From Candidatus Magasanikiibacteriota bacterium (lineage in GTDB: Bacteria; Patescibacteriota; Patescibacteriia; Magasanikbacterales; UBA922): a stretch of 64,000 bases of DNA. This document shows positions 2-61,500 of this stretch, one piece after another (positions within the stretch are counted from its first letter, which is position 1; every line of letters begins with the position of its first letter). The position numbers and the translations under genes are program-made. The notes under the pieces are model-generated. The model was not told the origin of the DNA and ran no database searches. It was given only the letters and a program-made list of their open reading frames with translations. The stretch lies in contig JACQQA010000005.1 of the NCBI GenBank assembly GCA_016207245.1, positions 64,068 to 128,067 on the forward strand. The letters are read 5' to 3'.

Positions 2-3000
2 GGCGATGAGTGGAAAGAATATCAACTCGGTCCGATTCAATTTACCGGCGCTGTTGATAAAGACACGAATTTAAAATTTTTCAATTACAATCTTAATGAT
101 CCAACCTTTTATTTTCTTGATAATGTGGAATTGCGCTATGTGCCTGATACGAGAACGATTATCAAAGATTCTTGGAAAAAGAAATTACCATACAACGGAC
201 AATCAGTGAACGCGGATGTTCCTCTTGCTTGCGACGCCAATCCAACCGATCCGTTCCCGGGCGACGCATTGGGCTGCCGCGCTTACGCGGAAGAAAGCAC
301 CGGCAGCATAGTGAATGTTACCGGATTTGAGAAATTGTGCCGAGTTGGGGCAGTCGGTTGCCGCGCGGTGTTTGATTCATACAATACAAAAGAAACCGAC
401 GCGACTGCGTTCAATGTTTGGTGCCAAGGAACGGTGGGCGATACGTCTTGTGAATTAAAAGCCGAAACAGATAAACTTGGCGAGTGCAAAATAGAGCAAG
501 GCAAAGACGGCTGTTATGTTGATAAGATAACATTGCCGGAAGGCGTAAGCCTGCCCGCCGGAGTTACTAACGCGGAAGTGAAGGATTCTACGATTATAAT
601 CCCCGCAGACACGGCTGATAACAAGCCGGTGTATTTAACCGTGCGTCCGCAGTTCGGCTGTTTGGAAAAAGCCAAAGGCTGCCAGGAAGTCGGCGCGGAA
701 GAACAGGTTTTGCCTGATAAAAATTCCGGTGCCTCTTATCAGCATAATGCGACATATCTAATCAATGATCCGTCTAAATACACTAGCGCGGATCGCACGC
801 TGTGCCGCGCGGATTTGGTCGGCTGCGAGGATTTCAAAGCCGGCAGCGATATTTTCTATTTTAAAAATCCGCTTAAGACCGGCAATAGTTTTTGCGAATA
901 CAAAGCCAAAGTGGAGAATGGCGGCGTAGAATACAAGGGTTGGTTTTTGAAAGATGTTGGTGTTTGTTATACTTCGGCTCCGCTCAGTATAAACACTGGC
1001 AAAATCTGCGGCAAAGATTCGGATTGCGGCGAAACCGAAACTTGCCAGGATAAAGGCAATGTTCCTTGCTATGATAACTATTTGCAGGCCGGCGGATTTT
1101 ACGACATTTGGTCAAACAATACTTCGCAGTACGAAGGAAATGTCGGCGTTTGTCCGAGCGAAAAAAATGGCTGCCGCGAACTAATTGATCCGGCCGACAC
1201 TTCCGACCTAAACCCCAAAGGCCAGCCGTATTACGCGATTTTTGACAAGCGGGTTACCGGCAAGGCCGGCGAGTGCGAAGGACAGGCAAGCCAGGTAGAG
1301 GGCTGTGTCTTGTTTAACAAAACCGATGAGCCGAATTTGCTTTATGATTCAGTCAAAACTTATCAAAACAGCGAGGATAAAAATTTCGCGCTGGTGCCGC
1401 TGGTTACAAACACAAATAAAAAAGATTCAAATTTGTTATTAAAAGTAATCCGCGACCGCCAATGCGCCGAGTGGCTGGCTTGCCAAGGGTCTTTGCCGGT
1501 TCCCGATACTCAATCCGGCACCGGCGAGCGATACAGCTGTTACGCGCTTCAGCCCTGCGAGGCCGGCAGTAGTTTAGAGTGCACCACTCCATCAACTCTG
1601 ACTGCCGAAGCTGACGATCGTCTGACTTATAGCGACTATATTGGCCGCGACGTGAGCTGGTCCGGCGCTCGCGAGTATTCCGGCTATTCGTTATTTCAAA
1701 AACCGCCGGCCGCTAATTTGGAATTTGTTACCATTAAAAAAGATATTACCGGCCTTGAGCAGGACGCGATTTTTGTCGGGTATATCAATAAGAAAGCCGC
1801 GTCCGTCTGTTCAGCCGGCGCAGCTGCCAACGGCGCGAAGTGCGGAAGCAAGGGCGTTTGTTATGATAAAAAATGCCTCGTTTCTCCGGATGATTCATAT
1901 CCCGCGGAATTGTTTGGCGCCAACGCGCAGAATTTTGCCGCGAGTAATTTTTATAAGTATTTATACAAAGTTGAGTGCCGCGGTTATCCGGCGCAAGACA
2001 GCCCGTTCAAAGGAAAATTAGACGATGTGTCGCAATTCACGCAGTCATTTTTGAGCAACGCGAGTTTCTGCGCCGAGGGAGAAAATTGCGACTGCAATTA
2101 CATTAAAGTTGAATACGGCGAGAACGGTTCAAGCGGTGAAACTAAATACTATCAATTGGGCGGAGAATTAAATTCGGATTTGCAAAAAGGCGGTATTTGT
2201 CAGGACGGGCCGAATGACGACAAGCCGTGCAGTTCAAACAAAGAATGCGCTGACAAAACCGATGAAGCAAATAACGGTACCTGCATCCGCCAATCAAAAC
2301 GCAACACTCGCATCGGCTGGAACGGCTACTGTTTGGAGCGCGATTTAAGCCGCCACGTCAATGGCCGGATTGACGACGCGCCCGACGCTTTCGCCTGTCT
2401 CACCTGGCTGCCTTTGGATTATGTTCCCGGCCTGTTTGACATTTATTACAGCGACCCGTCAATCGGTTATGTTCCGCCAACCGGCAAAGGCAGTCCGGGG
2501 CAGGCGTATTGCACCGAGATGCTGGGGGTGGGAGGGTTGAGTCCGGATTTGGATTTTAGTTGTGATCTTACAAAGCTTGGGTTAAAAGGGGATGATTTTT
2601 TTGATGGAGCAGGGGCGCTGGATGCCAACTTGTGTAATAATGGAGGTGAGGTATTACCGCAAGATATCCAAACATCTGGTTTTGATTTATCATATGTTCA
2701 AGAAAAGACGTGGAAAATGATAAAAGAATTGTCTGGCGATTTGAGCGGATTTTTTGGTAATTTGTCAGCAGAGGAAATGGCAAAACAGACCTATAATTAT
2801 ATAAGCCGCGTGGATACGACAGTACTGCCGATAATGTGGTATATTGATGGTGCGGCGAAGAAAAAGGAAGTTCCTTTAGATCAGGTTGTTGGCGGTATGT
2901 GGGGGTTTAATTACGATTATGACAAGGGCGACCTCAATACATTATTAAGAAAGAATTCAATAACATATACCGCAGTGATGGCTGCCGGCGGGCTTAATCC

Positions 3001-5392
3001 AAACAACGTTTCGGCGATTGTTCCCTACCCTCCTTTATTTCCGAATGTGCAGTACGACCAGATAACAAATCAAAAGGCGATTAGTGAAAAATTTAGTTTA
3101 GATAATTCCGTTTTTGAGACACTACCTATTTCGAATCACGACAGCGGTGTTATTAGGCAAGGTCCAAATAAAGCGGAAACATTTATAACAAAAGATATGA
3201 TTTACGCGGTATCTTTTGTGCCACTATGGTTGAGCGGGGATGAAGACAATACTGTTGGGGGTCCTGTGGTACCGGCCATGGGTATGCCGCTAACTTTGTA
3301 TGTTGACAAAGAATACCCAGATCAGTTTGGTTTGGATGCTAATGTGGATATGAAGAAAAGCGCGGCAGCGAATAGTTGTAGTTTTTGTAAATATTGGACG
3401 ATGAAGACGGAGCACAAAAAAGATAAATTTAACAACAACAAAGATGTGGAAGGGTATTTACTGCAATGGTTCGCTATGGACCCAATGAACGGCGAGGATC
3501 CCACGACAGGTGACGCGTCCGCGATAGAAGAATATGTTGACAATACTTACCTGGTTAATCCGTTGGCCAGCACAAATGGAAAAGCGGACGTACATTGCAA
3601 CATCGGAAAAGATGACGACAATCATTTTATCACGGTAGAAATTTTATTTGACAAAGAAACAGGCAAATTCGTCGGTTACCGTTCTCGTAATTGTGTAGAA
3701 TTAGATGTGAATAACGGCGATGAGTTTGGCTATGCAATGGCAGTTGTGTTTACTTTGAAGCCAATGTGTGTGGAGGCGGTAAAAGTTGTAAGCGGAGACG
3801 GGGTAACTAACAAAGCATACACTGACCGCGTTTGGGATGGCGGCAAGGAAACCGCTCCAAACACATACGAATCCAACTTTGTTGATAATGGCGCTGACGC
3901 GGGTCCTTATGGTTCGGCTAGGTTCGATAGTTTGAATAATTGCGAATCGGACAACCCGTGGTGTTATTTACAGCGGAACCCCAATAACGACATTTTGCAT
4001 GGCGGTACGCCATGGCAGTGTTTGGGAAGTTTCAAATCAGAAGCAGGGGTTGTATTCGGCGGCAACTGTCCTTTGGAAGATAAATTTAAGGATAAAGTGG
4101 TTGGATATAATCGGACAAAAGCATTGGACACGCCCGAATTACCATGGGAGAGTAAATTTTATAATGCTACTCCCATTATTTTAGCAAGTTCCGAAAAGTA
4201 TCTATTGTTTGATTCGCTATTTGCGAGATTATACGAGAAATCCACGAGAATGGGGGATGAGGAAAACGAACTGTCAACTGATTCTGCAAATAATTTGATT
4301 AGTCAACAAAACAAATTAAACAAGATTACAGGTGACACAACTTACAATTATTCATATCAATCTACGGCCTCGTTTCAGCTTAAAGATTATCCCATTTTGA
4401 ATCATGTTTGGGATTTTTCAAGCTCTACTACTGACATATTTTCTTCAATTAAAAACCAATTTTCTTCTTTTGATCCTAAAGTTGAACCATCCATCGTCCT
4501 CTTCGGCGACCATGCCGCTTTCCGCGGGGTTCCGCCAAGCATCTATCCGGTCGTAAAATGCGCCGGCCAAAAATGCGAGCTTGACAGTAAAGAACAAGGA
4601 TTTTCCGTGAATGGTTTGAACGGCAACAAAGTTGACGACAAATTATTCGGCGTCAAAACCAAAATGGCGCAAGTCCAATTCTTCGCCTGGGCTGACCACA
4701 ACCAAATGCCCTTGCGCCGGATTATGGTTGACTGGAGAGAGAAGGGAACAACAGGGTCTGATAACACAATCTCCGGCACTTCGCAGGGTTATTATTCTAA
4801 CTACAAACCGTATTGCGGAGATGACAGCGGAAAGGCGAAGGAGTGTGTGAAAAAAGATAATAATGCTGGTGGCAATAAAATTGTTTCCGGCAGCGGCATC
4901 ACTTGTCAAAACGATACCGAGTGTCCTTCCGCAACCCCAACCTGCGTTGATGTCGGTCCCAAATTCGGCAACCAGCCAAACAAAACCTGCAAAGACACTC
5001 CGGTCGTTCGCATCTTTAACTACACCTGCGACGCGGACAATGGTCCGATTGTGGCAGTCAGTAAGTTTAAAGATAAAACCGTTGGCACCACTCTTAGTCT
5101 GTCTATTGATGACACTTTGAGCCAGAAGTGGTACAACTTTCTCATTGACAAAGGCTTCAAAACCACCGACTCAGTCTGTATCTTCCAGCCCCGCGTTCAG
5201 GTTTTGGATAATTGGGGGTGGTGTACTGGGAGTTGTTTAAAACCACAAACAAGCAGTGTCTGGGAAAACGGTGGGTGTTATGATGACGAAATAGTTTTAA
5301 ACAGCGGTCTTGTAACCAGTTATGATCAGTGTTTAACCAATAGTGCATGGAAAGATTTTGACAATATCATCGTAGTGGCACCAGTGAAGTGA
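2..5392 (+). CDS. Giant cysteine-rich secreted/surface protein, C-terminal 1796 aa; the 5' end lies upstream of the window
   Basis: The frame is open from nt 2, with no stop before the GTG at 125 used by the ORF track, so the gene is cut by the window edge. Cys-rich with many short C-x(n)-C spacings, G/D/N-rich, no TM segments. TGA stop at 5390-5392 is followed by a hairpin terminator. Confidence 0.8.
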   Translation, partial: GDEWKEYQLGPIQFTGAVDKDTNLKFFNYNLNDPTFYFLDNVELRYVPDTRTIIKDSWKKKLPYNGQSVNADVPLACDANPTDPFPGDALGCRAYAEESTGSIVNVTGFEKLCRVGAVGCRAVFDSYNTKETDATAFNVWCQGTVGDTSCELKAETDKLGECKIEQGKDGCYVDKITLPEGVSLPAGVTNAEVKDSTIIIPADTADNKPVYLTVRPQFGCLEKAKGCQEVGAEEQVLPDKNSGASYQHNATYLINDPSKYTSADRTLCRADLVGCEDFKAGSDIFYFKNPLKTGNSFCEYKAKVENGGVEYKGWFLKDVGVCYTSAPLSINTGKICGKDSDCGETETCQDKGNVPCYDNYLQAGGFYDIWSNNTSQYEGNVGVCPSEKNGCRELIDPADTSDLNPKGQPYYAIFDKRVTGKAGECEGQASQVEGCVLFNKTDEPNLLYDSVKTYQNSEDKNFALVPLVTNTNKKDSNLLLKVIRDRQCAEWLACQGSLPVPDTQSGTGERYSCYALQPCEAGSSLECTTPSTLTAEADDRLTYSDYIGRDVSWSGAREYSGYSLFQKPPAANLEFVTIKKDITGLEQDAIFVGYINKKAASVCSAGAAANGAKCGSKGVCYDKKCLVSPDDSYPAELFGANAQNFAASNFYKYLYKVECRGYPAQDSPFKGKLDDVSQFTQSFLSNASFCAEGENCDCNYIKVEYGENGSSGETKYYQLGGELNSDLQKGGICQDGPNDDKPCSSNKECADKTDEANNGTCIRQSKRNTRIGWNGYCLERDLSRHVNGRIDDAPDAFACLTWLPLDYVPGLFDIYYSDPSIGYVPPTGKGSPGQAYCTEMLGVGGLSPDLDFSCDLTKLGLKGDDFFDGAGALDANLCNNGGEVLPQDIQTSGFDLSYVQEKTWKMIKELSGDLSGFFGNLSAEEMAKQTYNYISRVDTTVLPIMWYIDGAAKKKEVPLDQVVGGMWGFNYDYDKGDLNTLLRKNSITYTAVMAAGGLNPNNVSAIVPYPPLFPNVQYDQITNQKAISEKFSLDNSVFETLPISNHDSGVIRQGPNKAETFITKDMIYAVSFVPLWLSGDEDNTVGGPVVPAMGMPLTLYVDKEYPDQFGLDANVDMKKSAAANSCSFCKYWTMKTEHKKDKFNNNKDVEGYLLQWFAMDPMNGEDPTTGDASAIEEYVDNTYLVNPLASTNGKADVHCNIGKDDDNHFITVEILFDKETGKFVGYRSRNCVELDVNNGDEFGYAMAVVFTLKPMCVEAVKVVSGDGVTNKAYTDRVWDGGKETAPNTYESNFVDNGADAGPYGSARFDSLNNCESDNPWCYLQRNPNNDILHGGTPWQCLGSFKSEAGVVFGGNCPLEDKFKDKVVGYNRTKALDTPELPWESKFYNATPIILASSEKYLLFDSLFARLYEKSTRMGDEENELSTDSANNLISQQNKLNKITGDTTYNYSYQSTASFQLKDYPILNHVWDFSSSTTDIFSSIKNQFSSFDPKVEPSIVLFGDHAAFRGVPPSIYPVVKCAGQKCELDSKEQGFSVNGLNGNKVDDKLFGVKTKMAQVQFFAWADHNQMPLRRIMVDWREKGTTGSDNTISGTSQGYYSNYKPYCGDDSGKAKECVKKDNNAGGNKIVSGSGITCQNDTECPSATPTCVDVGPKFGNQPNKTCKDTPVVRIFNYTCDADNGPIVAVSKFKDKTVGTTLSLSIDDTLSQKWYNFLIDKGFKTTDSVCIFQPRVQVLDNWGWCTGSCLKPQTSSVWENGGCYDDEIVLNSGLVTSYDQCLTNSAWKDFDNIIVVAPVK

Positions 5393-5404
5393 ACAAAATT
5401 GAAC

Positions 5405-5433
5405 AAAAAATCCACCGATGAGGTGGATTTTTT
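5405..5433. terminator. Bidirectional rho-independent terminator
   Basis: AAAAAA-TCCACC-gatga-GGTGGA-TTTTTT. The A-run and T-run flank the stem. It sits between the convergent genes 2-5392 (+) and 5505-5945 (-). Confidence 0.8.
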
Positions 5434-5504
5434 GTCAGAAAGAATTTTATAAATAAAATCCTTTGTTGGGAGCCTGACGCGGGGTGGGAAGATGTTGCGG
5501 CAGG

Positions 5505-5945
5505 CTAGAGGTTGGCGGGTTGGCACTGGAGTGCAGCGGGGTCGGAGAATACCTCCGGTGGGCGATCCCCGAAAGCCGGCGGACAGGAAGCAAGGCACCC
5601 CCATTGCTCGTCGTAGTGCCATTGGATCTGGCATTGCCCTGCGATGGGTCCGCAGTCGAGCCACTTTCCGGTGGGGTACTGCTCGAGAACTTTTGAGCAG
5701 TCTGTCGGGGGAGCGGGTTGCTCCGTGTCGGGCTGGGAGCCCTCGGTGTCCGCCTCACCGGCGGACGCGTCTTCTCCCGGGAGGGAGACGAGACAACCGG
5801 CGGGGTCGTCGGCTTTGCCCTGGCAGGCGGCGGGTACGGATTCGTCATCCGTGGGACCCGGCGGGGTGTCGGAATCGCAGGACGCGAGGAGAGTTGCGCC
5901 GAGAATGGCGCAGGCGAGAAGGGCGTACACCCAATGACGCACCAT
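5505..5945 (-). CDS. Small Cys-rich lipoprotein encoded in a GC-rich island
   Basis: N-terminus MVRHWVYALLACAILGATLLASC has a basic start, a hydrophobic core and an L-A-S-C lipobox. GGAGG (5952-5956) lies 6 nt upstream of the ATG (5943-5945). The mature part is acidic and Pro-rich with 9 Cys. The local sequence is visibly much more GC-rich than its flanks. Confidence 0.65.
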   Translation of the reverse strand: MVRHWVYALLACAILGATLLASCDSDTPPGPTDDESVPAACQGKADDPAGCLVSLPGEDASAGEADTEGSQPDTEQPAPPTDCSKVLEQYPTGKWLDCGPIAGQCQIQWHYDEQWGCLASCPPAFGDRPPEVFSDPAALQCQPANL

Positions 5946-6370
5946 GGCGCACCTCCTATGTCCCGAAATTGGGACGACCCGCTATAGACTACCTGTTAGT
6001 CTGCGGCGGGGAGTAGAGTTATTTTTTAACCGCACTCCTCACCGCAGACTTTTTTACCAGTGTTTACTTTGCCACGCCGTAGCCTTAGCGAAGGCGGGGC
6101 CAACCATATTTGTTCTCTTTATCACGGTTTTTAACCGCGAACATAGAGAAACGATTTAAAGAACAAACCTATTTATCCATATTAATTAGACCATAAAAAT
6201 ACAGTTTTGTCAAGTTGAAAAAACAGCTTTTGGCTAACTTGCGAGCTTCTGTCAAGGGTGAGGTGTGGATAAGTCGGACGACAGAACACAGAATGCAGAT
6301 AACATGACACATAAAAAACACAACTGTTCGTCGTTGTATTCTGTTATTTGTATTCTGTATTCTGCTCGCC

Positions 6371-6417
6371 GTCGGTCCCAAATTCGGCAAAGACATTCCG
6401 GTTATTAGCATCTTTAA
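6371..6417 (+). repeat. Degenerate duplicate of an internal 3' segment of the giant gene (nt 4952-5019)
   Basis: 6371-6390 is identical to 4952-4971 (20/20). 6391-6417 matches 4993-5019 at 23/27. About 21 nt (4972-4992) are missing from the downstream copy. Confidence 0.8.
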
Positions 6418-6418
6418 T

Positions 6419-6446
6419 TTGACAAGGCGGTTATTTTTGGTATAGT
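6419..6446 (+). promoter_or_regulatory. Sigma70-type promoter for the MNT/HepT operon, with leaderless geometry
   Basis: TTGACA (6419-6424), 16-nt spacer, TGg-TATAGT (6438-6446). The ATG at 6455 is only 9 nt after the -10 element. Confidence 0.6.
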
Positions 6447-6454
6447 GTAAACAT

Positions 6455-6736
6455 ATGACACTTACAGCAATCACAAAAAAAATTAAACCGGTGTTGAGAC
6501 GGCATAAGATAGAAAAAGCCGCTATTTTTGGTTCTTACGCTCGCAATGAACAAAAATATGAGAGCGATTTGGATTTATTAATAAAACCGCCCAAAGGCAT
6601 GTCTTTGTTGGGCCTAGTCGGGCTTGAGGAAGATTTGCGGGATAAGCTCGGTTTTGATGTTGATGTGGTGACTTACCGTTCCATTCACCCGCTTTTAAAA
6701 TCATATATTAAAAAAGACCAAGTTCGTATTTTATGA
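6455..6736 (+). CDS. mntA: MNT-type nucleotidyltransferase antitoxin
   Basis: GSYARNEQKYESDLDLLI matches the minimal nucleotidyltransferase G-S-x(n)-D-x-D motif. 93 aa. The stop overlaps the start of the next gene (ATGA). Confidence 0.8.
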   Translation: MTLTAITKKIKPVLRRHKIEKAAIFGSYARNEQKYESDLDLLIKPPKGMSLLGLVGLEEDLRDKLGFDVDVVTYRSIHPLLKSYIKKDQVRIL

Positions 6737-7074
6737 AGAAAGATCCTAAAATTTTTTTATTGCATATTTTGGAATCTATTAAGAATGTTGAGGATTATTT
6801 AAGCGGTAAAACAAAGAGAGATTTTTTAGAATCGGAACTTTTGCAGGATGCTTTTATCCGCAGGCTAGAAGTAATCGGCGAAGCGGTAAGCCAGATTCCA
6901 GACAATGTGCGTCGAATATTTCCCAAAGTTCCTTTGCAGGAAATCGCCGGCATGAGAAACAAATTGATTCATGAGTATTTTATCGTGGATTTGCATTTAG
7001 TCTGGGAAGTTGTGCAAAAAGATATTCCACAATTAAAAAAACCGATTATGCAAGTGTTAGAGGAAATCGGGTAA
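6733..7074 (+). CDS. hepT: HepT (DUF86/HEPN) RNase toxin
   Basis: 113 aa. RNKLIHEY is the HEPN R-x4-H motif near the C-terminus. There is a 4-nt overlap with the upstream MNT gene. Confidence 0.8.
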   Translation: MKKDPKIFLLHILESIKNVEDYLSGKTKRDFLESELLQDAFIRRLEVIGEAVSQIPDNVRRIFPKVPLQEIAGMRNKLIHEYFIVDLHLVWEVVQKDIPQLKKPIMQVLEEIG

Positions 7075-41465: not shown

Positions 41466-41537
41466 GCACCCGTCGTTCAACGGATAGGACACAAGATTGC
41501 GGATCTTGTAATCGAAGTTCGATTCTTCGCGGGTGCA
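41466..41537 (+). tRNA. tRNA-Arg (anticodon GCG)
   Basis: Acceptor GCACCCG/CGGGTGC, D-stem GTTC/GGAC, anticodon arm CAAGA-ttGCGga-TCTTG, T-arm CGAAG-TTCGATT-CTTCG, discriminator A. No CCA is encoded. Confidence 0.9.
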
Positions 41538-41554
41538 CTTTTAATTTTGATTAT

Positions 41555-47959: not shown

Positions 47960-47988
47960 TTGACAGCCGGCTGTCTGTAGAATATAAT
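47960..47988 (+). promoter_or_regulatory. Perfect-consensus sigma70 promoter
   Basis: TTGACA (47960-47965), exactly 17 nt, TATAAT (47983-47988). Confidence 0.75.
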
Positions 47989-48092
47989 GTCGCTTGTCAT
48001 ACCAGCTAAAAAAATCCGGCGGGCGCCGGATCTTCGTCCCGTCATGGCGGGACGGAAGCTGGTTACGATCAGAGAAAAAGGAGAAAGATCTG

Positions 48093-48302
48093 ATGCTGAA
48101 ACGTCTGGAAACAACGATCACAATCGAGGGTAGGGGGTACTGGGTGGATCCAAAACGTGTGCGTCCGCCCAATAAGAGGGGCGGTGAACAACGAGTGGAG
48201 TGCTTCGCTAGACCGTTCGCCATCGGCGCTCCGGACAGGCTGGTGCCAATCAGCGCTGTGCCGTCCTACCTGTTCGACGCTTCGCAGGGGGTGGCAATCT
48301 AA
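48093..48302 (+). CDS. Small GC-rich ORF A (69 aa), unknown function
   Basis: AGGAG (48079-48083) lies 9 nt before the ATG at 48093. The stop overlaps the next start (TAATG). No similarity recognised. Confidence 0.5.
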   Translation: MLKRLETTITIEGRGYWVDPKRVRPPNKRGGEQRVECFARPFAIGAPDRLVPISAVPSYLFDASQGVAI

Positions 48303-48514
48303 TGGGGTCAGTTCACACGTTTCCGGTTCCCCAGCGGCTTCTTGACGGGCGAAAGGCCCACGGAATGACCATTTCAGGCGGGAGAGTAGTGGTGGAGGTT
48401 AGCTCCAGCACTGGCACTCTCTACATTCCGCTCGCTGGGATTCAGCCCGTGGCAGACAGCGCGCAACGCCTGCTGTTCTCCGAGGTCGCAACCCGCCTCC
48501 GCAACCCCCAGTAA
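48302..48514 (+). CDS. Small GC-rich ORF B (70 aa), unknown function
   Basis: Translationally coupled to ORF A and followed by a strong terminator. No similarity recognised. Confidence 0.5.
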   Translation: MGSVHTFPVPQRLLDGRKAHGMTISGGRVVVEVSSSTGTLYIPLAGIQPVADSAQRLLFSEVATRLRNPQ

Positions 48515-48541
48515 TTCTTTCTCTTTTTCTTGATTTTTCCA

Positions 48542-48574
48542 CGCGGCGCTCCGATATAACATCGGAGCGCCGCG
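48542..48574 (+). terminator. Strong GC-rich hairpin terminator
   Basis: GCGGCGCTCCGAT-ataac-ATCGGAGCGCCGC forms a perfect 13-bp stem. A T-rich tract follows, and a second small hairpin-plus-T7 lies at about 48596-48620. Confidence 0.7.
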
Positions 48575-48696
48575 ATCCCCATTCTTTATTTTTCAACAGC
48601 TTATGGCTGTTTTTTTGTATTTGGTGTATAATATAAAGGCTGGAAAGGCTTAAAATGCCTGAAAGGCAAGAAAATTAATTGTTTAATTAAAATTTT

Positions 48697-56333: not shown

Positions 56334-58427
56334 ATGCTTCCAAGGATTTTACACAATTTGCGAGTTAAAAAGTCCGCCAAAGTTCTGCTGATTTTATTTT
56401 TGGCGGTTTTTTTGTTTGTGGGCGTTGCGGCATACGCGCAAGGCGAGTTGAATTTTGGTTTACAGCCGGTTCAGAATAGCATCGGCTTGGCTTCAACTGA
56501 CATCAGAATCATTATCGCGCGGATTATTCGCGCGGTTTTGGGTTTGCTCGGGGTGATCGCGATTGTTATCATGATTTACGCCGGGTATACCATCATGACT
56601 TCCGGCGGGGATGAAGAGCAAGTGGTTTACGGCAAAAAAATAATGATTAACGGGGTAATCGGCCTCATCATTATTTTGTCTTCTTTGGCGATAGTGCAGT
56701 ATGTTTTGAACGCCTTGGGTCAAGCGACGGGCATGGCTGGTTTTGAAGGCGCAACTAAGCCCAAAATAGAAACTTTTGCGGGCAGCGGCGCGCTGGGCAA
56801 GATTATCAAGGATCATTATCCGGAAAAAGACCAGATCGGGGTTAAGCGCAACACCAAAATATCGGTAACTTTCGCCGAGCCGATTGATCCCTCAACGATT
56901 ATTTCCAATGATAATAATACTTGCTGGGGGCCGGCCGGGTTTCCGGTCGTATGCGACGATGCCAGCAAGACGCCGTATTATGGCGACTGTATTACCAACA
57001 AAGTGGACGCAACCGGCGCTCCGATAGCGTTTGATTGGAGTAAAGACTGCGACCACTTGTTGACTAAGAATGTGGAAATTTTTGCTTCCGGATTAGCAGA
57101 GAAAAAGTTGACGGAAGCCGCGGCCATGACCGTGTATGAAGATGGAGCCGTGAATAACGCCTACACTTTCGTGTTCAAGCCGTTTGAGCCGATTGGCGAT
57201 AGTTTGCAGGATATGTGGTATACGGTGAACCTGAATGGCGAGATTAAAAAGAAAGACGGTACGGGCGCGTTTGACGGCCAGCATTATAAATATTACACCT
57301 GGAATTTTAAAACCGACACCACGTTTGATTTTGATCCGCCGTTTGTCAAGAGCACCTATCCGATGTTGGGAGATAAGATCCCGCGCAATACGATTATCCA
57401 GATCAATTTCAGCGAGGCCATGGATCCGATAATGACGCAGGGTTTGTTAAAGAAAGACGGCGATTTTACCAATCTGATTTTCGGCAGTCCGGCGGTAAGC
57501 GGCGAGTGGAAGCTTTCCAATGGCTATGCCACTGCCGAATTTACGCCGAACGAAGAATGCGGCGAAAACAGCTGCGGCGACACGATGTATTGTCTGCAAA
57601 TTGACTGTAAGTTTACTGATAAAAATTGTCAGCAAGATTTGGCGATTTTAAATCGCACCGGCAGTTTGATTGATAAAAAAACTTTTGAAGCTAATCCGTT
57701 CAGCGGTTTGATGGATATGTCCGGCAACGCGCTTGACGGAAATAAAGATAGTGTTCCAAACGGCCAGCCGAACAACGGCATTAAAGGCGTGGATGGGGAT
57801 CTGCACTTAATCGGCGAGCCGGAAAAAGCTCCGGATAACTATTGGTGGAATTTTACGGTTAAAAACGAAATTGACCGCAAGTCGCCGTATGTTAATAAAG
57901 TAACGCCCGGATTGGATGCCGGCGGCGTGTCAAAAAACGCTTTCACGCAAATTACTTTCAGCCGTCCGATGTGGATTAGCACGCTGGATAATATCGCGTT
58001 GGAAGAATTTCCTGAAGCCAATGTGGATGGCAAGTGGATTGATTTTTGGTTTTTGCGCCGTTCGGAAACTGTCGGGGTAACGACCACTGTTGAATTAAAA
58101 CACCGCGAATATGGCGCGAATGGCGTTGATTATTTTTATTTACCAAAAGTTCCCAGCGCGGTCAAAAGTTTGAATCAGGCTTGTTTGTATCCGGGCTACG
58201 GGCCGGTGATGGTTAACGCCGGTGAATCGCCGGAGTGCGTTATCACAAAATACACCAAAGATGGCGCGCCTTTGGAAATTCCGGATACTTGCGTCAAGGT
58301 GACGGCCGATAGCAAAACCGACACCGGCTGTATTCAAACGAATGATAAGGCGGTTAATATTTTTCAACCGGATGTGGAAAAGTGCATGGAGTATCAAAAA
58401 TCAATTAGTATTAAGGTGGTAGAGTGA
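56334..58427 (+). CDS. Surface protein: T4SS-pilin-like two-helix N-terminal module plus three Big_5-type Ig-like domains
   Basis: Signal/TM, then IIRAVLGLLGVIAIVIMIYAGYTIMTSGGDEEQVVYGKKIMINGVIGLIIILSSLAIVQYVLN, the helix-loop-helix pattern of TrbC/VirB2-like 'pilin' proteins annotated in Patescibacteria. Three ..N(T/A)xIxxxF(S/A)EP(I/M)DP.. Ig-like segments follow. Confidence 0.7.
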   Translation: MLPRILHNLRVKKSAKVLLILFLAVFLFVGVAAYAQGELNFGLQPVQNSIGLASTDIRIIIARIIRAVLGLLGVIAIVIMIYAGYTIMTSGGDEEQVVYGKKIMINGVIGLIIILSSLAIVQYVLNALGQATGMAGFEGATKPKIETFAGSGALGKIIKDHYPEKDQIGVKRNTKISVTFAEPIDPSTIISNDNNTCWGPAGFPVVCDDASKTPYYGDCITNKVDATGAPIAFDWSKDCDHLLTKNVEIFASGLAEKKLTEAAAMTVYEDGAVNNAYTFVFKPFEPIGDSLQDMWYTVNLNGEIKKKDGTGAFDGQHYKYYTWNFKTDTTFDFDPPFVKSTYPMLGDKIPRNTIIQINFSEAMDPIMTQGLLKKDGDFTNLIFGSPAVSGEWKLSNGYATAEFTPNEECGENSCGDTMYCLQIDCKFTDKNCQQDLAILNRTGSLIDKKTFEANPFSGLMDMSGNALDGNKDSVPNGQPNNGIKGVDGDLHLIGEPEKAPDNYWWNFTVKNEIDRKSPYVNKVTPGLDAGGVSKNAFTQITFSRPMWISTLDNIALEEFPEANVDGKWIDFWFLRRSETVGVTTTVELKHREYGANGVDYFYLPKVPSAVKSLNQACLYPGYGPVMVNAGESPECVITKYTKDGAPLEIPDTCVKVTADSKTDTGCIQTNDKAVNIFQPDVEKCMEYQKSISIKVVE

Positions 58428-58540: not shown

Positions 58541-58547
58541 GAGAGTT

Positions 58548-61500
58548 ATGTTATCAAGGTCAAAGCGAAAAATATTGTTGATAGCGGTGGCGGCAATAGT
58601 AGCGACCGGTATTTTGGCGTTCGCAGCTTCAGTTTTCGCGCAAGATGCGTCGTTGAATTTCGGTCTTAAACCGGTGGCTGAGGGGACAGGATTAGGCGGA
58701 CAAGATATTAGAATCACAATCGCGAAAATAATCCGCGCGGTTTTGGGTTTGCTCGGCATTATCGCGCTTGGCGTGATGCTGTACGGCGGATTTATGTATA
58801 TGACATCCGCCGGCGAGGAAGAAAAGATTTCTACCGCCAAAAAAGCTCTTACCAATGGCGTGATCGGCTTAGTAATAATTTTGTCGTCTTTGGCGTTGGT
58901 GCAGTTTATTCTCAACAAGCTCGGCGAAGCGACCGGAATGTTTGATACCACGACGGAGAAAGCGTGTTTGGATGAAGAATACGCATTTTTGCATCCGGAG
59001 CTGTGCCAGCCTGTAGAGTTCGGGGATTTTTGCACTCAATATCCGTCCAATCAATTTTGCTGTAAAGATGACACGGTGTTTTACGCGAAGAGCATCACGC
59101 CGGTTACCGATAATACCGGCATGCATAATGTGGCGGTAAGGGCGTTATTCAACAAAAACATTAAAATCGGCGACGCGGCTAAAGTGTTCGGGATTGATTT
59201 TGGCGGTCAAGACATAAGCAATAAATTTGATTACGAATTTTTAGGCGATAATAAAAGCGGGAATCAGATTGGCGTGCAGGCGAATTATAAAGCTGGCGCA
59301 GAAATCTGTGATGATGGCACGCCGTGTTTGAATGGCGGCGATTACAAGGTGGCGGTGGCGAATAATTTAGAAAGCCAAGATGGTTTGCCGATAACAGAGA
59401 AAACGAGCTGTGGAGATTTCCCGTTAAACGCGGGATTCAAAACGCCTGATGCGGGCGGGAAAGTGAAGGATGAGACAGCGCCGGTTTTATCAGCGATTAA
59501 AATCAATGGTTCAACCGAAGCGGACCAGGCGCTTAAGCCGGGCAAAGTTTATGCCATGGAAACAAACGTTACCGATAATAGCGGTTTTGGGTATCTTAAT
59601 TTCAAAATCGACAAAGAGATCGCTGGGGGCGGCAAAGAACAAGTCTTTGGTTTTTACGACGGTCCGACCGTGAAACACGGCTCTGACGCGCCGGAAGCGA
59701 ATCCGTATCAATTTATTTATCCGCTGTTGACTGATAAAAATCCGGAAAAATTAACGCACTACTCTTTAGAAGTTGAAGCGTGGGACATAGACCACAATAG
59801 CGCGAAGCAGGAGATTAGCTATGTTTTGGGAGAACAAAAAGGAACCGGCGACACCTGTTCTGCGGATTGGGAATGCGACTCCAGCCAATGCAGTGGCGGA
59901 GTTTGCGTCGCCCAGCCGAAAATTTTAGATGTTTATCCGTTGAATGGCGCGGCCGGAAATTGGATTACGATTGTGGGAAATTATTTTGGCGATGATGAAG
60001 GAAAAATTGAATTTGCTTACGATGACAATCATGACGGCAAAATTGATGACGCGGATACTTGGCAAAAAACGTTTCCGGTTGATTGCGAAGGCGAGGATAT
60101 TTGGACGGATAATTGGGCGATTATCGGCGTTCCGAGTGATAAGAATTTACCGTTGGGTTCCAAAAGCGCTATCCGTTTGACTCGGTTTGATTCAACCGCG
60201 GAATTGCCGTTGTTGGATTACAGCATAGATAATTTTGGCCCGAAACCGGGCGGCGACGGTTTGTTTGAAAAAAATAATATCAAGCGTCCGGGCTTGTGCA
60301 GCGTGAAAACAGTCGGCGAAGGCGCGATTCCGGCGGGCGCGGCTTTCGGGCCGCCGGGCGCCGCGGTGAAAGCAATGGGCGATGCTTTGGGGGCGGGAGT
60401 GAATAGCGGTCTGTTTTTCGGCGGCGCAATTGATAAGCAGACCAAACAATTGGCCGGCGGTTTGCAGGCGTCAGTCGCGAACGGCGATTGGACAGACAAA
60501 CTTATCACCGCCAAAGTGCCAAACAATATGGCTAATGGGAAAGTGGCGGTTTACGCGAAAGTCGGCGCTGAATCCAGCAATGGTGTGCCGTTTTTGATTG
60601 ATTCTTCAAGCGCTGAGGATAAGATTCCGGTGATAGAGCAGATTGATCCGGAATCAGCCACGCCCGGAAGTTTGATAACTATTTCCGGCAAAGGTTTTGG
60701 CTACAAACCCGGCGAGATTTATTTGGCGCAAAATTTAAATAATGAAATTAAGCAGTGTGTTAAGGCAGGCGGTCTCGGTTGTATTAAACTCAACACCACT
60801 TTGCCCGGCGAATGCGGAATAAATTGGACGCCGACGCAGATCATCGCGCAGGTACCATTATATGCGGGAATTAAAAATTATCAATTGATTTTAGAAAATG
60901 AATGGGAAGTGGCAAGCGATGGGCAGGAAAAGTTTGCCGTTATCGCGGGCAAGCCGGCGCCGGGGATTTGCAAGATTCAACCCAATTCCGGTCCGGCGCC
61001 TTTGCCAAACGGACAATTTTTGGATATTTACGGCATTAATTTTAAAAATCCGCATGAAAATTATTTTTGGCGGAACGGAGCATTGATTAAAGATATAAAT
61101 ACCTGGCTAAGCGGCGATGAGGCCGATGAAGAAATAAATCAAGAGGGAACGCATATTTCAAAAGTGCAGATACCAGTTGAAAGCGGCAAGAGCATGCAGT
61201 CGGGTCCGATTAAAATCGGTACGGACGATAAATTCAGCAATGGCGTTAAATATACCGTGGAAAATTGTCAAACCGCCAACAAAACTTTGAGTGACGCGAT
61301 GAAAACGAGCGGTTATCAATGCTGTACGGTTGACGGTCCGGATAATGGCATCTGGAAATCCTCCAATTATATTTGCGGGGATGAAAAACGTGAAGGCGGG
61401 TACGTGTGGCGTTTTACCACCGGTATTATTCCGATTTTGCCGCAAGTAATGGAAGAGTGCAATGAGGTTGATTGGAATAAGCCGGATAAAATTATCGCTT

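What the first reader, a model, noticed from the sequence alone, without database searches (positions are those of the whole stretch)
5466..6016. Short, sharply GC-rich island encoding a Cys-rich lipoprotein, embedded in AT-richer DNA
Over about 550 bp the composition switches abruptly to very GC-rich. All six frames become open, which is why the track lists many overlapping ORFs here. Only one reading is supported. The minus-strand ORF 5505-5945 has GGAGG 6 nt upstream of its ATG and a textbook lipoprotein signal (MVRHWVYALLACAILGATLLAS|C). Its Asp/Pro/Glu-rich mature part contains 9 Cys. Codon usage, with G or C at nearly every third position, is unlike every neighbouring gene. The island sits directly behind the giant Cys-rich surface protein gene and shares that gene's bidirectional terminator. 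Possible explanations are a recent acquisition from a high-GC donor (or host), a misassembled or chimeric contig, or a gene under unusual constraints.
Basis: seen in the sequence. Interest (0 to 1): 0.55.

Follow-up and report, generated by a model that had tools for sequence, protein, structure and literature searches.

The report
Conserved GC-rich, highly structured lipoprotein gene
The GC-rich island is a real small lipoprotein gene in an uncultured Magasanikbacteria (CPR) lineage, neither an assembly error nor a recent foreign import, and all its relatives keep the same odd composition, C-ending codons and tightly folded mRNA, which points to selection on the transcript.

Summary
Window 5466-6016 is 65.3% GC against 45.0 +/- 4.0% for the window, the highest peak in 64 kb.

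The minus-strand ORF 5505-5945 is a genuine lipoprotein gene:
- It has 15 relatives, all small lipoproteins from Candidatus Magasanikbacteria-type contigs.
- dN/dS is 0.33-0.77.
- The lipobox Cys is nearly invariant.

- **Chimera:** four independent assemblies are 100% identical across the borders they reach.
- **Recent import:** all 11 distinct loci keep 59-66% GC and GC3 of 0.67-0.77 in 33-49% GC flanks, despite saturated synonymous divergence. No homologue exists outside the clade.

The GC excess has identifiable sources:
- About half comes from the Pro/Asp/Ala/Cys-rich protein.
- The rest comes from C-ending codons only (C3 0.48 vs 0.22; G3 unchanged).
- GC-rich structured UTRs add to it.

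The transcript is unusually folded:
- Every family coding sequence folds better than its synonymous-codon permutations (z -2.0 to -8.8; controls -0.4 +/- 0.9).
- A roughly 240-nt leader carries two covarying stem-loops and matches no Rfam family.

The gene always lies next to the 3' end of the giant Cys-rich protein gene.

Best reading: a transcript selected for stability and efficient translation, encoding a probably abundant surface lipoprotein. Expression level and partner are inferred. Moderately interesting.

The parts
5505..5945 (-). Coding sequence of the 146-aa prolipoprotein (stop codon 5505-5507, ATG 5943-5945). GC 0.662; GC1/2/3 are 0.70/0.55/0.73.
   Evidence: ORF listed. There are 15 homologues. 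dN/dS is 0.33-0.77, with an excess of third-position differences. It is the only frame open in all 11 loci.
5877..5945 (-). Signal peptide (residues 1-22) and lipobox L-A-S-C. Cys23, the predicted lipidated residue, is encoded at 5877-5879.
   Evidence: Translation. C23 is nearly invariant in the 15-member alignment A6.
5706..5876 (-). Residues 24-80: an acidic, Pro/Thr/Ser-rich tether with two conserved Cys (C41, C51) and the conserved motif GSQPDTEQPAPP. It is predicted to be disordered.
   Evidence: AlphaFold2 pLDDT is below 50 for residues 16-70. The DNA encoding EGSQPDTEQPAP is almost invariant in four loci.
5508..5705 (-). Residues 81-146: the C-terminal Cys-rich domain of type A, with 6 Cys. 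It is a small, mostly beta domain.
   Evidence: pLDDT is about 75-80 for residues 80-125. No fold match in the PDB. No Pfam, NCBIfam or PDB sequence match. Type A is shared with P0002, P0015, P0003, P0017 and P0011; other members carry a different type B domain.
5950..5957 (-). Shine-Dalgarno sequence AGGAGGTG, ending 4 nt before the ATG (GGAGG is 6 nt before it).
   Evidence: Sequence. GAGGTG is invariant, and the G before it nearly so, across the loci.
5960..5975 (-). Small hairpin GTCCCAATTTCGGGAC just upstream of the Shine-Dalgarno sequence. It is present only in the long-leader subgroup.
   Evidence: Alignments. Fold.
5998..6050 (-). Leader stem-loop SL2: GTCTGCGGTGAGGAGTG ... ACTCCCCGCCGCAGAC. 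In L005, L018 and L025 the loop carries GC-rich hairpin insertions.
   Evidence: Inverted repeat I2. 18 pairs, 9 of them with compensatory changes, about 95% of cells paired.
6070..6101 (-). Variable GC-rich hairpin insertion between SL1 and SL2. It is present in the window, L019 and L021 and absent elsewhere.
   Evidence: Alignments. Fold.
6112..6152 (-). Leader stem-loop SL1: GTTTCTCT [TCGCGGTT AAA AACCGTGA] AGAGAAC.
   Evidence: 12 pairs, 6 of them with compensatory changes, 96% of cells paired.
6185..6213 (-). Promoter: -35 TTGACA (6208-6213), a 17-nt spacer, an extended TG, and -10 TCTAAT (6185-6190). The inferred 5' UTR is about 240 nt.
   Evidence: GGTCTAAT is present in all 9 loci that reach this far. 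TTGACA is conserved in most of the loci that reach it. The generic scan missed the site because the -10 hexamer has C at position 2. The transcription start is inferred, not mapped.
5473..5504 (-). First 3'-UTR hairpin, C-rich: CCTGCCGC [AACATCTTCCCACCCC] GCGTCAGG. The loop motif ATCTTCC is conserved in most loci.
   Evidence: 3'-UTR sequences of 11 loci. C is 0.29-0.51 and G is 0.13-0.20 in the first 45 nt. Alignment.
5439..5464 (-). Second 3'-UTR hairpin, AT-rich: AAAGGATTTTAT/ATAAAATTCTTT.
   Evidence: Inverted repeat I9. An equivalent hairpin is present in most loci.
5402..5436 (.). Bidirectional intrinsic terminator shared with the giant protein gene: a 14-bp perfect stem flanked by an A-run and a T-run.
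   Evidence: Terminator scan. Inverted repeat I4.
2..5392 (+). 3' part of the giant secreted Cys-rich protein gene. It is the conserved neighbour of the lipoprotein gene and is truncated by the window start.
   Evidence: The frame is open from the window start. It has 67 Cys in 1755 aa. A homologue of its C-terminal region lies next to the lipoprotein gene in every locus with enough flanking sequence, in varying orientation. The L005 orthologue is 2898 aa with an N-terminal signal peptide.

Best explanation
The island is one complete, anciently resident transcription unit of a Candidatus Magasanikbacteria-type (CPR/Patescibacteria) chromosome. It consists of a promoter, a roughly 240-nt structured leader, a strong Shine-Dalgarno sequence, a 146-codon prolipoprotein gene, a 3' UTR with two hairpins, and a terminator.

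**The protein.** It has a signal peptide with a lipobox Cys, then a disordered acidic Pro/Thr/Ser-rich tether of about 55 residues, then a Cys-rich mini-domain of about 60 residues. It defines a fast-evolving, clade-restricted family with no known relatives.

**Why the region is GC-rich (shown).** This is not foreign ancestry. It is the sum of three things:
1. An amino-acid composition rich in Pro, Asp, Ala, Cys and Thr. With the host's own codon usage this alone predicts 55% GC.
2. A gene-specific, strand-specific preference for C-ending codons, which raises GC to 63-66%.
3. GC-rich hairpins in both UTRs.

**Selection on the RNA (shown).** The coding sequence is also selected for RNA secondary structure at synonymous sites.

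**Mechanism (inferred).** The mRNA is built to be long-lived and efficiently translated:
- Stem-loops at the 5' and 3' ends and low A+U content would limit attack by ribonucleases.
- A consensus-like promoter, a perfect Shine-Dalgarno sequence and NNC codons read by G34 tRNAs would give high output.

The product would then be an abundant surface-anchored lipoprotein. Because the gene is always adjacent to the 3' end of the giant Cys-rich secreted protein gene, I infer that it binds or anchors that protein's C-terminal domain, possibly through disulfides.
For: **Real and resident**
- Identical sequence across the borders in independent assemblies.
- Conserved neighbourhood in a related species.
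- The organism was identified from MFQN01000003, Candidatus Magasanikbacteria.

**Protein-coding**
- 15 family members.
- dN/dS 0.33-0.77, with most differences at third positions.
- Only this frame is open in all loci.

**GC is a conserved trait**
- 11 distinct loci have coding-sequence GC of 0.585-0.662 and GC3 of 0.67-0.77, against flanks of 0.33-0.49.
- This includes the most distant member, at 25% identity.
- dS is up to about 1.

**Decomposition of the excess**
- Expected GC with background codon usage is 0.551; observed is 0.630.
- C3 is 0.48 against 0.22, while G3 is 0.25 against 0.26.
- TTC 0.93 vs 0.25; AAC 0.89 vs 0.36; GAC 0.83 vs 0.37; CTC 0.66 vs 0.07.
- GCG and CCG are used less than in the background.
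- The C3 bias persists where the gene is co-oriented with its neighbour, so it is not a replication-strand effect.

**mRNA structure**
- Synonymous-codon permutation gives z of -2.0 to -8.8 (mean -3.8) in all 11 coding sequences.
- 23 control segments from window genes give -0.43 +/- 0.93. Mann-Whitney p = 4e-6.
- Dinucleotide-shuffle z is -1.6 to -5.3.
- The sense strand is more structured than the antisense (Wilcoxon p = 0.016).
- Local coding-sequence hairpins: 85.6% of cells paired, 23 of 64 pairs compensatory, 0 of 500 shuffles as high.

**Leader**
- Two stem-loops: 95.8% of cells paired, 15 of 30 pairs compensatory, 0 of 500 shuffles as high, many G-U pairs.
- Fold z is -5.8.

**Other**
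- G34 tRNAs (Val-GAC, Arg-GCG, Ile-GAU, Ser-GCU) are encoded in the window.
- C-ending codons are the usual translationally optimal choice in two-codon boxes (PMC5629928).
- A homologue of the giant protein's C-terminus adjoins the gene in every locus with enough flank.
Against: - **Expression.** It has not been measured. No ribosomal-protein or other reference highly expressed gene of this genome was available, so 'C-ending codons are optimal here' is untested.
- **Expectation for CPR.** These are slow-growing bacteria, for which strong translational selection is not expected. The bias seen here is as large as the strongest reported in fast growers, which is itself odd.
- **3' UTR.** It is also C-rich and G-poor. 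That points to an RNA-level cause rather than a purely codon-level one.
- **Window gene alone.** Its own structure score (z -2.58) overlaps the extreme of the controls (minimum -2.46). The signal is convincing only across the family, and family members are not independent.
- **Coding-sequence hairpin counts.** They were made on a structure predicted from the same alignment.
- **Partnership with the giant protein.** It rests only on adjacency.
- **Protein model.** Confidence is low (mean pLDDT 56).
Confidence: 0.55

Rival explanations
1. An ancient horizontal transfer from a high-GC donor, possibly the host bacterium of this episymbiont, whose composition has not yet drifted to that of the recipient genome.
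For: The composition is 20 points above the genome, with sharp borders. The codon usage is unlike any other gene in the window.
Against: - GC3 stays at 0.67-0.77 in all 11 diverged loci although dS is at or near saturation. A neutral remnant should have decayed towards about 0.48.
- No homologue was found outside the clade among 1.8 billion representatives and 5.8 billion clusters.
- The excess is C3 only, and GCG and CCG are depleted. This is unlike typical high-GC bacterial usage.
- There are no mobility genes, tRNA or flanking direct repeats at the borders.
- The promoter and leader are conserved together with the gene.
Confidence: 0.08
2. An assembly chimera: a GC-rich fragment of another organism joined into an AT-richer contig.
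For: Only the abrupt change in composition.
Against: - Three independent per-run assemblies are 100% identical to window 4800-6800. A fourth matches 4800-5999.
- The same gene order is found in a different species, again as a GC island.
Confidence: 0.01
3. GC-biased gene conversion at a recombination hot spot. The locus is mosaic and recombines often, and repair bias has pushed its GC content up.
For: - Signal-peptide type and C-terminal domain type occur in all four combinations among family members.
- Some DNA stretches are nearly identical between otherwise diverged alleles.
- The orientation of the unit relative to its neighbour differs between loci.
Against: - Gene conversion bias is strand-symmetric and should raise G3 and C3 alike. 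Here only C3 rises (0.48 vs 0.22) while G3 is unchanged.
- It does not explain why synonymous choices increase folding stability.
- It does not explain the compensatory changes in the stems.
- No paralogue that could act as a conversion donor was found in the 64-kb window or the held loci.
Confidence: 0.08
4. The functional product is mainly a structured RNA (a dual-function or regulatory RNA), and the ORF is secondary or incidental.
For: - Strong folding z-scores on the whole unit.
- Covarying stems in the leader and coding sequence.
- Variable hairpin insertions of the kind tolerated by functional RNAs.
- The other GC peak in this genome (47985-48585) has no ORF and looks like an ncRNA.
Against: - The ORF is intact at 130-150 codons in the 10 loci that hold a complete copy (the eleventh locus, the window, is 146 codons). 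The lipobox Cys and other Cys are nearly invariant.
- dN/dS is below 1 and third-position changes are in excess.
- The perfect Shine-Dalgarno sequence and the ATG are invariant.
- No Rfam family matches.
Confidence: 0.07
5. The leader is a sensor (riboswitch, thermosensor or protein-binding leader) that switches lipoprotein synthesis on or off. GC-richness would be a by-product of that regulation.
For: - The leader is long (about 200-320 nt) and conserved, with two covarying stem-loops.
- It has conserved unpaired stretches such as TGTTCTTTACAT and TGGTTGG.
Against: - No terminator or Shine-Dalgarno-sequestering helix is conserved.
- The one alternative pairing I examined, read by eye from the alignment, is not supported by covariation.
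- The Shine-Dalgarno sequence is separated from SL2 by spacers of variable length.
- It would not explain the composition of the coding sequence.
Confidence: 0.15

Closest known systems
Braun's lipoprotein gene lpp of Escherichia coli and its mRNA
   Same: [quoted passage not shown] From my own knowledge, lpp mRNA is also long-lived and rich in hairpins (Nakamura et al. 1980). The unit here likewise has a strong promoter, a strong Shine-Dalgarno sequence, biased codons, many hairpins and a strong terminator.
   Different: There is no sequence or fold relationship. Lpp is a 58-residue coiled coil without Cys-rich domains. The lpp 5' UTR is 38 nt and weakly structured, whereas this leader is about 240 nt with covarying stem-loops. 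Expression and stability of the present mRNA have not been measured.
VirB7-type small lipoproteins of type IV secretion systems
   Same: [quoted passage not shown] From my own knowledge it is disulfide-linked to a larger partner, VirB9. Here a small Cys-rich lipoprotein sits beside a giant Cys-rich protein, about 13 kb from a VirB4-like ATPase.
   Different: Patescibacterial systems are of the monoderm type, a class that lacks the outer-membrane core proteins VirB7, VirB9 and VirB10. In the related species L005 the far-side neighbour is an RHS toxin gene rather than the secretion cluster. The conserved link is therefore to the giant protein, not to the secretion system. No homology could be tested.
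Compositional genomic islands from horizontal transfer
   Same: A sharp local deviation in GC content and codon usage.
   Different: The island is present at the same place in relatives and has no mobility genes or insertion scars. No donor homologues exist, and the deviation is maintained over deep divergence.
mRNAs stabilised by 5' stem-loops, such as the E. coli ompA leader and the Bacillus subtilis aprE leader (from my own knowledge)
   Same: Long structured 5' UTRs ahead of genes for abundant envelope or secreted proteins. A 3' terminator hairpin is present as well.
   Different: There is no sequence similarity and no Rfam match. A stabilising role here is inferred only. The structure also extends through the coding sequence.

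Membership tests
Bacterial lipoproteins (Lgt/LspA substrates) | An N-terminal signal peptide with a positively charged n-region and a hydrophobic h-region | tested here: met
   MVRH followed by WVYALLACAILGATLL. The feature is conserved in all 15 members.
Bacterial lipoproteins (Lgt/LspA substrates) | A lipobox [LVI][ASTVI][GAS]C with a conserved Cys at +1 | tested here: met
   L-A-S-C at residues 20-23. C23 is nearly invariant (at least 90%) in A6.
Bacterial lipoproteins (Lgt/LspA substrates) | The genome encodes Lgt and LspA | not testable with these tools
   Neither was found among the 35 window ORFs scanned against Pfam. The rest of the genome is not available.
Braun lipoprotein (Lpp) | Sequence membership in the Lpp family, or a coiled-coil fold | tested here: not met
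   No Pfam or NCBIfam match. The model shows a disordered tether plus a small beta domain.
Entry-exclusion lipoprotein TrbK and other named lipoprotein families in NCBIfam | A profile match above the curated cut-off | tested here: not met
   The best matches have E = 0.02-0.06 in 1 of 15 members each, which is noise level.
VirB7-like secretion-system lipoprotein | Encoded within a type IV secretion cluster and partnered with VirB9 | tested here: inconclusive
   A VirB4-like gene lies 13 kb away in the window, but the linkage is not kept in L005. Monoderm-type systems, which the Patescibacteria system resembles, lack VirB7, VirB9 and VirB10, and no VirB7 profile exists.
Horizontally acquired genomic island | Atypical composition | tested here: met
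   65% against 45% GC.
Horizontally acquired genomic island | Patchy presence among relatives, mobility genes or insertion scars, and homologues in a plausible donor | tested here: not met
   The gene is syntenic in relatives. There are no flanking repeats or tRNA. No homologue exists outside the clade.
Any described structured RNA family (Rfam 15) | A covariance-model match at or near the gathering score | tested here: not met
   No match at gathering thresholds. The best sub-threshold match reaches 26 bits against a cut-off of 49.
Immunity protein of a polymorphic toxin | Encoded immediately downstream of the toxin C-terminus on the same strand | tested here: not met
   The gene is convergent in the window, L005 and L019. 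It has its own promoter and leader in all loci that reach that far. No toxin domain was detected in the giant protein.
Immunity protein of a polymorphic toxin | Usually a cytoplasmic protein (from my own knowledge) | tested here: not met
   The product carries a signal peptide and lipobox, so it is exported and membrane-anchored.

The most novel reading that the evidence does not exclude
The whole transcript, not just the protein, is the selected object. On this reading it is a C-rich, A+U-poor, end-to-end structured mRNA with a previously undescribed covarying leader. Its composition is maintained in a slow-growing CPR bacterium because it makes the message resistant to cellular ribonucleases, possibly including the HEPN/HepT toxins encoded next to it in the loci with enough flanking sequence. 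The surface lipoprotein would then keep being made when bulk mRNA is degraded. A variant of this reading is that the leader is a new riboswitch-like sensor.
Probability: 0.12. Interest if true: 0.65.

Novelty: new member of a known kind. Interest (0 to 1): 0.38.

Why it matters
- **Interpreting GC islands.** Sharp GC islands in AT-rich genomes are routinely read as foreign DNA or assembly errors. This one is neither. It is a clean case where composition is held far from the genomic equilibrium over deep divergence, by protein composition, strand-specific codon choice and RNA structure.
- **CPR biology.** The finding flags a clade-specific, probably abundant surface lipoprotein that always accompanies a giant Cys-rich secreted protein. 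Such proteins are candidates for cell-cell attachment in these episymbionts.
- **RNA discovery.** It yields an undescribed conserved structured leader that could be modelled and searched for more widely.
- **Codon selection.** It raises a testable question: can a slow-growing, reduced-genome bacterium impose strong codon selection on a single gene?

Tried and rejected
- **Known RNA families.** Rfam at gathering thresholds on the whole window and at E <= 10 on 5300-6400 gave only noise.
- **Known protein families.** Pfam, NCBIfam and a PDB profile search found nothing.
- **Protein structure.** The AlphaFold2 model has mean pLDDT 56, and Foldseek against the PDB gave no match with E <= 0.001. 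No fold assignment is possible.
- **Plus-strand ORF 5492-6016 (174 aa).** It is not open in the homologues, so it is a by-product of GC richness.
- **Antisense terminator.** The SL2 hairpin followed by TTTTTT on the plus strand looked like a terminator for an antisense RNA. The T-run is not conserved in L005 or L013, and the G-U pairs favour the sense strand.
- **Paralogues as gene-conversion donors.** None were found in the window or the held loci.
- **Invertible element.** No flanking inverted repeats were found, although orientation differs between loci.
- **Alternative leader pairing.** TGTTCTTT with the 3' arm of SL1 would form a switch. Read by eye from the alignment, C-A mismatches in L013 and L019 are not compensated.
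- **Similarity between the lipoprotein and the giant protein's C-terminus.** None.
- **Replication-strand skew as the cause of C-richness.** Rejected, because the bias persists where the gene is co-oriented with its neighbour.
- **Codon reference set.** I looked for highly expressed reference genes in the window to test codon optimality and found none. The high-scoring small ORFs at 58-62 kb are antisense noise inside a giant ORF.
- **Leader covariance model.** Not built, because the leader alignments exceed the 400-column limit.
- **First folding script.** It timed out and was rerun in parallel.
Full report
**1. The observation**

Window 5466-6016 is 65.3% GC. Across the 64-kb window, 550-bp windows average 45.0% with sd 4.0%. 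This is the highest peak, about 5 sd out; the next is 58.4% at 48021-48570.

The minus-strand ORF 5505-5945 (146 aa) has these features:
- GGAGG lies 6 nt before the ATG, within AGGAGGTG.
- The N-terminus is MVRHWVYALLACAILGATLLAS|C, with lipobox L-A-S-C.
- There are 9 Cys from the lipobox Cys onward.

'G or C at nearly every third position' is overstated. GC1/2/3 are 0.70/0.55/0.73.

A 14-bp perfect hairpin with an A-run and a T-run (5403-5435) separates the gene from the convergent giant gene, which ends at 5392. That giant ORF is open from the start of the window, so it is truncated there.

**2. It is a real protein gene, and the contig is not a chimera**

Window 4800-6800 is 100% identical in three independent per-run assemblies. 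A fourth covers 4800-5999.

Word-based and exhaustive profile searches recovered 15 family members:
- All are lipoproteins of 92-150 aa.
- All come from metagenomes (groundwater and others).
- One genome record carrying P0004 is Candidatus Magasanikbacteria RIFCSPLOWO2_12_FULL_43_12.
- The only other profile hits were two long repetitive proteins that I judge to be low-complexity matches.

The rest of the window is a CPR-type chromosome. It encodes TopA, DprA, Der, RecG, HisRS, a VirB4-like ATPase and pilin-domain giant proteins.

Evidence for coding:
- Pairwise dN/dS is 0.33-0.77, with an excess of third-position differences.
- The lipobox Cys and several other Cys are nearly invariant.
- This is the only one of six frames open in all 11 distinct loci. 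The 174-aa plus-strand ORF is not conserved.

The family matches nothing in Pfam, NCBIfam or the PDB. The AlphaFold2 model is weak, with mean pLDDT 56:
- Residues 16-70 are predicted to be disordered.
- Residues 80-125 form a small beta domain at about 76.
- The model finds no fold match.

Members combine two signal-peptide types with two unrelated C-terminal Cys-rich domains in all four combinations.

**3. GC-richness is an old, maintained trait, not a recent import**

In all 11 distinct loci the coding sequence is 58.5-66.2% GC, with GC3 of 0.67-0.77. DNA a few hundred bases away is 33-49% GC. This holds even for the most distant member (25% identity). It also holds although synonymous divergence between members reaches about 1. 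A neutral foreign remnant would have decayed.

No borders of a mobile element are present. No paralogue is present in the held sequence.

**4. What the excess consists of**

With the window's own codon usage, the family's amino-acid composition alone would give 55.1% GC. That composition is Pro 13%, Asp 10%, Ala 9% and Cys 6%, with few Lys, Ile or Asn. So roughly half of the excess is protein composition.

The remainder is codon choice, and it is strand-specific:

| Measure | Family | Window background |
|---|---|---|
| C3 | 0.48 | 0.22 |
| G3 | 0.25 | 0.26 |
| TTC (Phe) | 0.93 | 0.25 |
| AAC (Asn) | 0.89 | 0.36 |
| TAC (Tyr) | 0.83 | 0.32 |
| GAC (Asp) | 0.83 | 0.37 |
| CTC (Leu) | 0.66 | 0.07 |
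| TCC (Ser) | 0.55 | 0.16 |
| CCC (Pro) | 0.41 | 0.13 |

GCG and CCG are used less than in the background.

This pattern argues against two readings:
- A typical high-GC donor, in which G-ending codons abound.
- GC-biased gene conversion, which is strand-symmetric.

It is not a replication-skew effect either. In loci where the gene is co-oriented with its neighbour, C3 is still 0.40-0.49.

C-ending codons are the usual translationally optimal choice in two-codon boxes (PMC5629928). The window encodes several G34 tRNAs. I could not compare with ribosomal-protein genes of this genome.

The first 45 nt of the 3' UTR are also C-rich and G-poor. An RNA-level cause therefore remains possible.

**5. 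The transcript is unusually structured**

Coding sequence:
- Permuting synonymous codons within each sequence keeps protein, codon usage and GC3 fixed. Against such permutations the native sequence folds more stably in all 11 loci.
- z runs from -2.0 to -8.8, with mean -3.8. The window gene scores -2.58.
- Twenty-three control segments from other window genes give -0.43 +/- 0.93, with a minimum of -2.46. Mann-Whitney p = 4e-6.
- Dinucleotide shuffles agree.
- The sense strand scores lower than the antisense (mean -3.8 against -2.7; Wilcoxon p = 0.016).
- A consensus of about 15 local hairpins in type-A coding sequences has 85.6% of cells paired. Twenty-three of 64 pairs show compensatory change, and no shuffle of 500 reaches this. 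The caveat is that the structure came from the same alignment.
- One example is visible. The window has GTCCGCC-GGTGA-GGCGGAC where relatives have GGTGTCC-TCCAC-GGACACC. The hairpin is kept while the peptide changes from ASAGEAD to AVSSTDT.

Upstream region:
- A promoter, TTGACA-17 nt-(TG)G-TCTAAT, is conserved across most loci that reach it.
- It is followed by a leader of about 200-320 nt.
- The leader has two stem-loops: 95.8% of cells paired, 15 of 30 pairs compensatory, and 0 of 500 shuffles as high. Slid controls give 40-50% paired.
- Many pairs are G-U, which supports sense-strand RNA.
- Hairpin insertions of variable size sit in the SL2 loop, between SL1 and SL2, and at the 5' end.
- The leader folds with z = -5.8.

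Downstream region: the 3' UTR has a conserved C-rich hairpin with an ATCTTCC loop motif, an AT-rich hairpin and the terminator.

No Rfam family matches any of this.

**6. Genomic context**

A homologue of the last ~150-300 residues of the giant Cys-rich protein lies next to the lipoprotein gene in every locus with enough flank. Its orientation varies:

| Arrangement | Loci |
|---|---|
| Convergent | window, L005-L012, L019 |
| Upstream on the same strand | L022, L023 |
| Downstream on the same strand | L021 |

The L005 orthologue is 2898 aa with a signal peptide.

On the other side, MNT/HepT-type toxin-antitoxin pairs are frequent. The gene beyond them differs: a 1594-aa membrane protein and a secretion-system cluster here, and an RHS toxin in L005. 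The conserved partner is therefore the giant protein.

Patescibacterial type IV systems are of the monoderm type, a class that lacks VirB7, VirB9 and VirB10 (PMC12102498).

**7. Interpretation**

Shown:
- This is a resident, conserved, fast-evolving lipoprotein gene.
- Its GC island reflects protein composition, a C-ending codon preference and GC-rich structured UTRs.
- Synonymous sites are selected for RNA structure.
- The leader is a covarying structured RNA.

Inferred:
- The design serves mRNA stability and high translational yield, by analogy with lpp (PMC5924895) and with 5'-stem-loop-stabilised messages.
- The product is abundant on the surface.
- It binds or anchors the C-terminal domain of the giant protein.

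Rivals and my estimates:

| Reading | Confidence |
|---|---|
| Ancient transfer | 0.08 |
| Biased gene conversion | 0.08 |
| RNA-only function | 0.07 |
| Sensor leader | 0.15 |
| Chimera | 0.01 |

**8. Verdict**

Two of the three proposed causes are refuted, and the third is supported and made specific.

This is a new, clade-restricted member of a familiar kind, a small lipoprotein gene with its own regulatory and stabilising RNA structure. Its unusual feature is a stably maintained compositional anomaly. Interest is moderate.

Noticed in passing
window 47985-48585 (+): This is the second-highest GC peak (58%). It is about 600 nt long with no credible ORF, lying between a P-type ATPase gene and a 1208-aa surface protein gene. 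A TTGACA-17-TAGAAT promoter precedes it and a 14-bp GC-rich terminator hairpin (48545-48580) follows. No Rfam family matches and no tmRNA was found. The fold z-score is -4.3. It is a candidate for an undescribed large ncRNA.
   Followed up: partly
window 2-5392 (+) and 58542-64000 (+): Two giant ORFs run off the window ends. The Cys-rich one is at least 1796 aa; its orthologue in L005 is 2898 aa. The second is at least 1819 aa, and its N-terminus resembles the T4SS-pilin-domain protein at 56334-58427. The small ORFs listed at 58.5-63.9 kb are antisense noise inside the second giant ORF.
   Followed up: partly
L005-L012, L015, L016 (in L005: 8347-8616 and 7525-7605): Short fragments homologous to residues 1585-1657 of the giant protein's C-terminal region lie between the MNT/HEPN toxin-antitoxin modules. 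This resembles orphan cassettes or remnants of rearrangement. L021 has a stand-alone 272-aa homologue of the C-terminal region.
   Followed up: no
L021, L022, L023 versus window, L005, L019: The lipoprotein unit is inverted relative to the giant protein's C-terminal coding region in some lineages. No flanking inverted repeats that would indicate a switchable element were found in the window.
   Followed up: partly
family alignment A6 (window 5505-5945 and homologues): The family is mosaic. Two signal-peptide types (MVRFNW...CAILGATLLASC and MKTRLLFLAAFAA...LLASC) combine with two unrelated C-terminal Cys-rich domains in all four combinations, which implies recombination between alleles.
   Followed up: no
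window 6455-7074 (+); L005 6788-9257: An MNT (nucleotidyltransferase) / HepT (HEPN RNase) toxin-antitoxin pair lies divergent from the lipoprotein gene. The related species has three such pairs in a row at the same place. A 30-nt imperfect inverted repeat (6282-6311 / 6335-6364) precedes the MNT promoter and may be its operator.
   Followed up: no
window 41466-41538 (+): A tRNA-Arg with anticodon GCG, rather than the ACG gene usual in bacteria. With Val-GAC, Ile-GAU and Ser-GCU it shows that G34 tRNAs read NNC codons in this organism.
   Followed up: no
L024 254-655: The most divergent family member (25% identity) has by far the strongest excess of mRNA structure: z = -8.8 against synonymous-codon permutations.
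   Followed up: no
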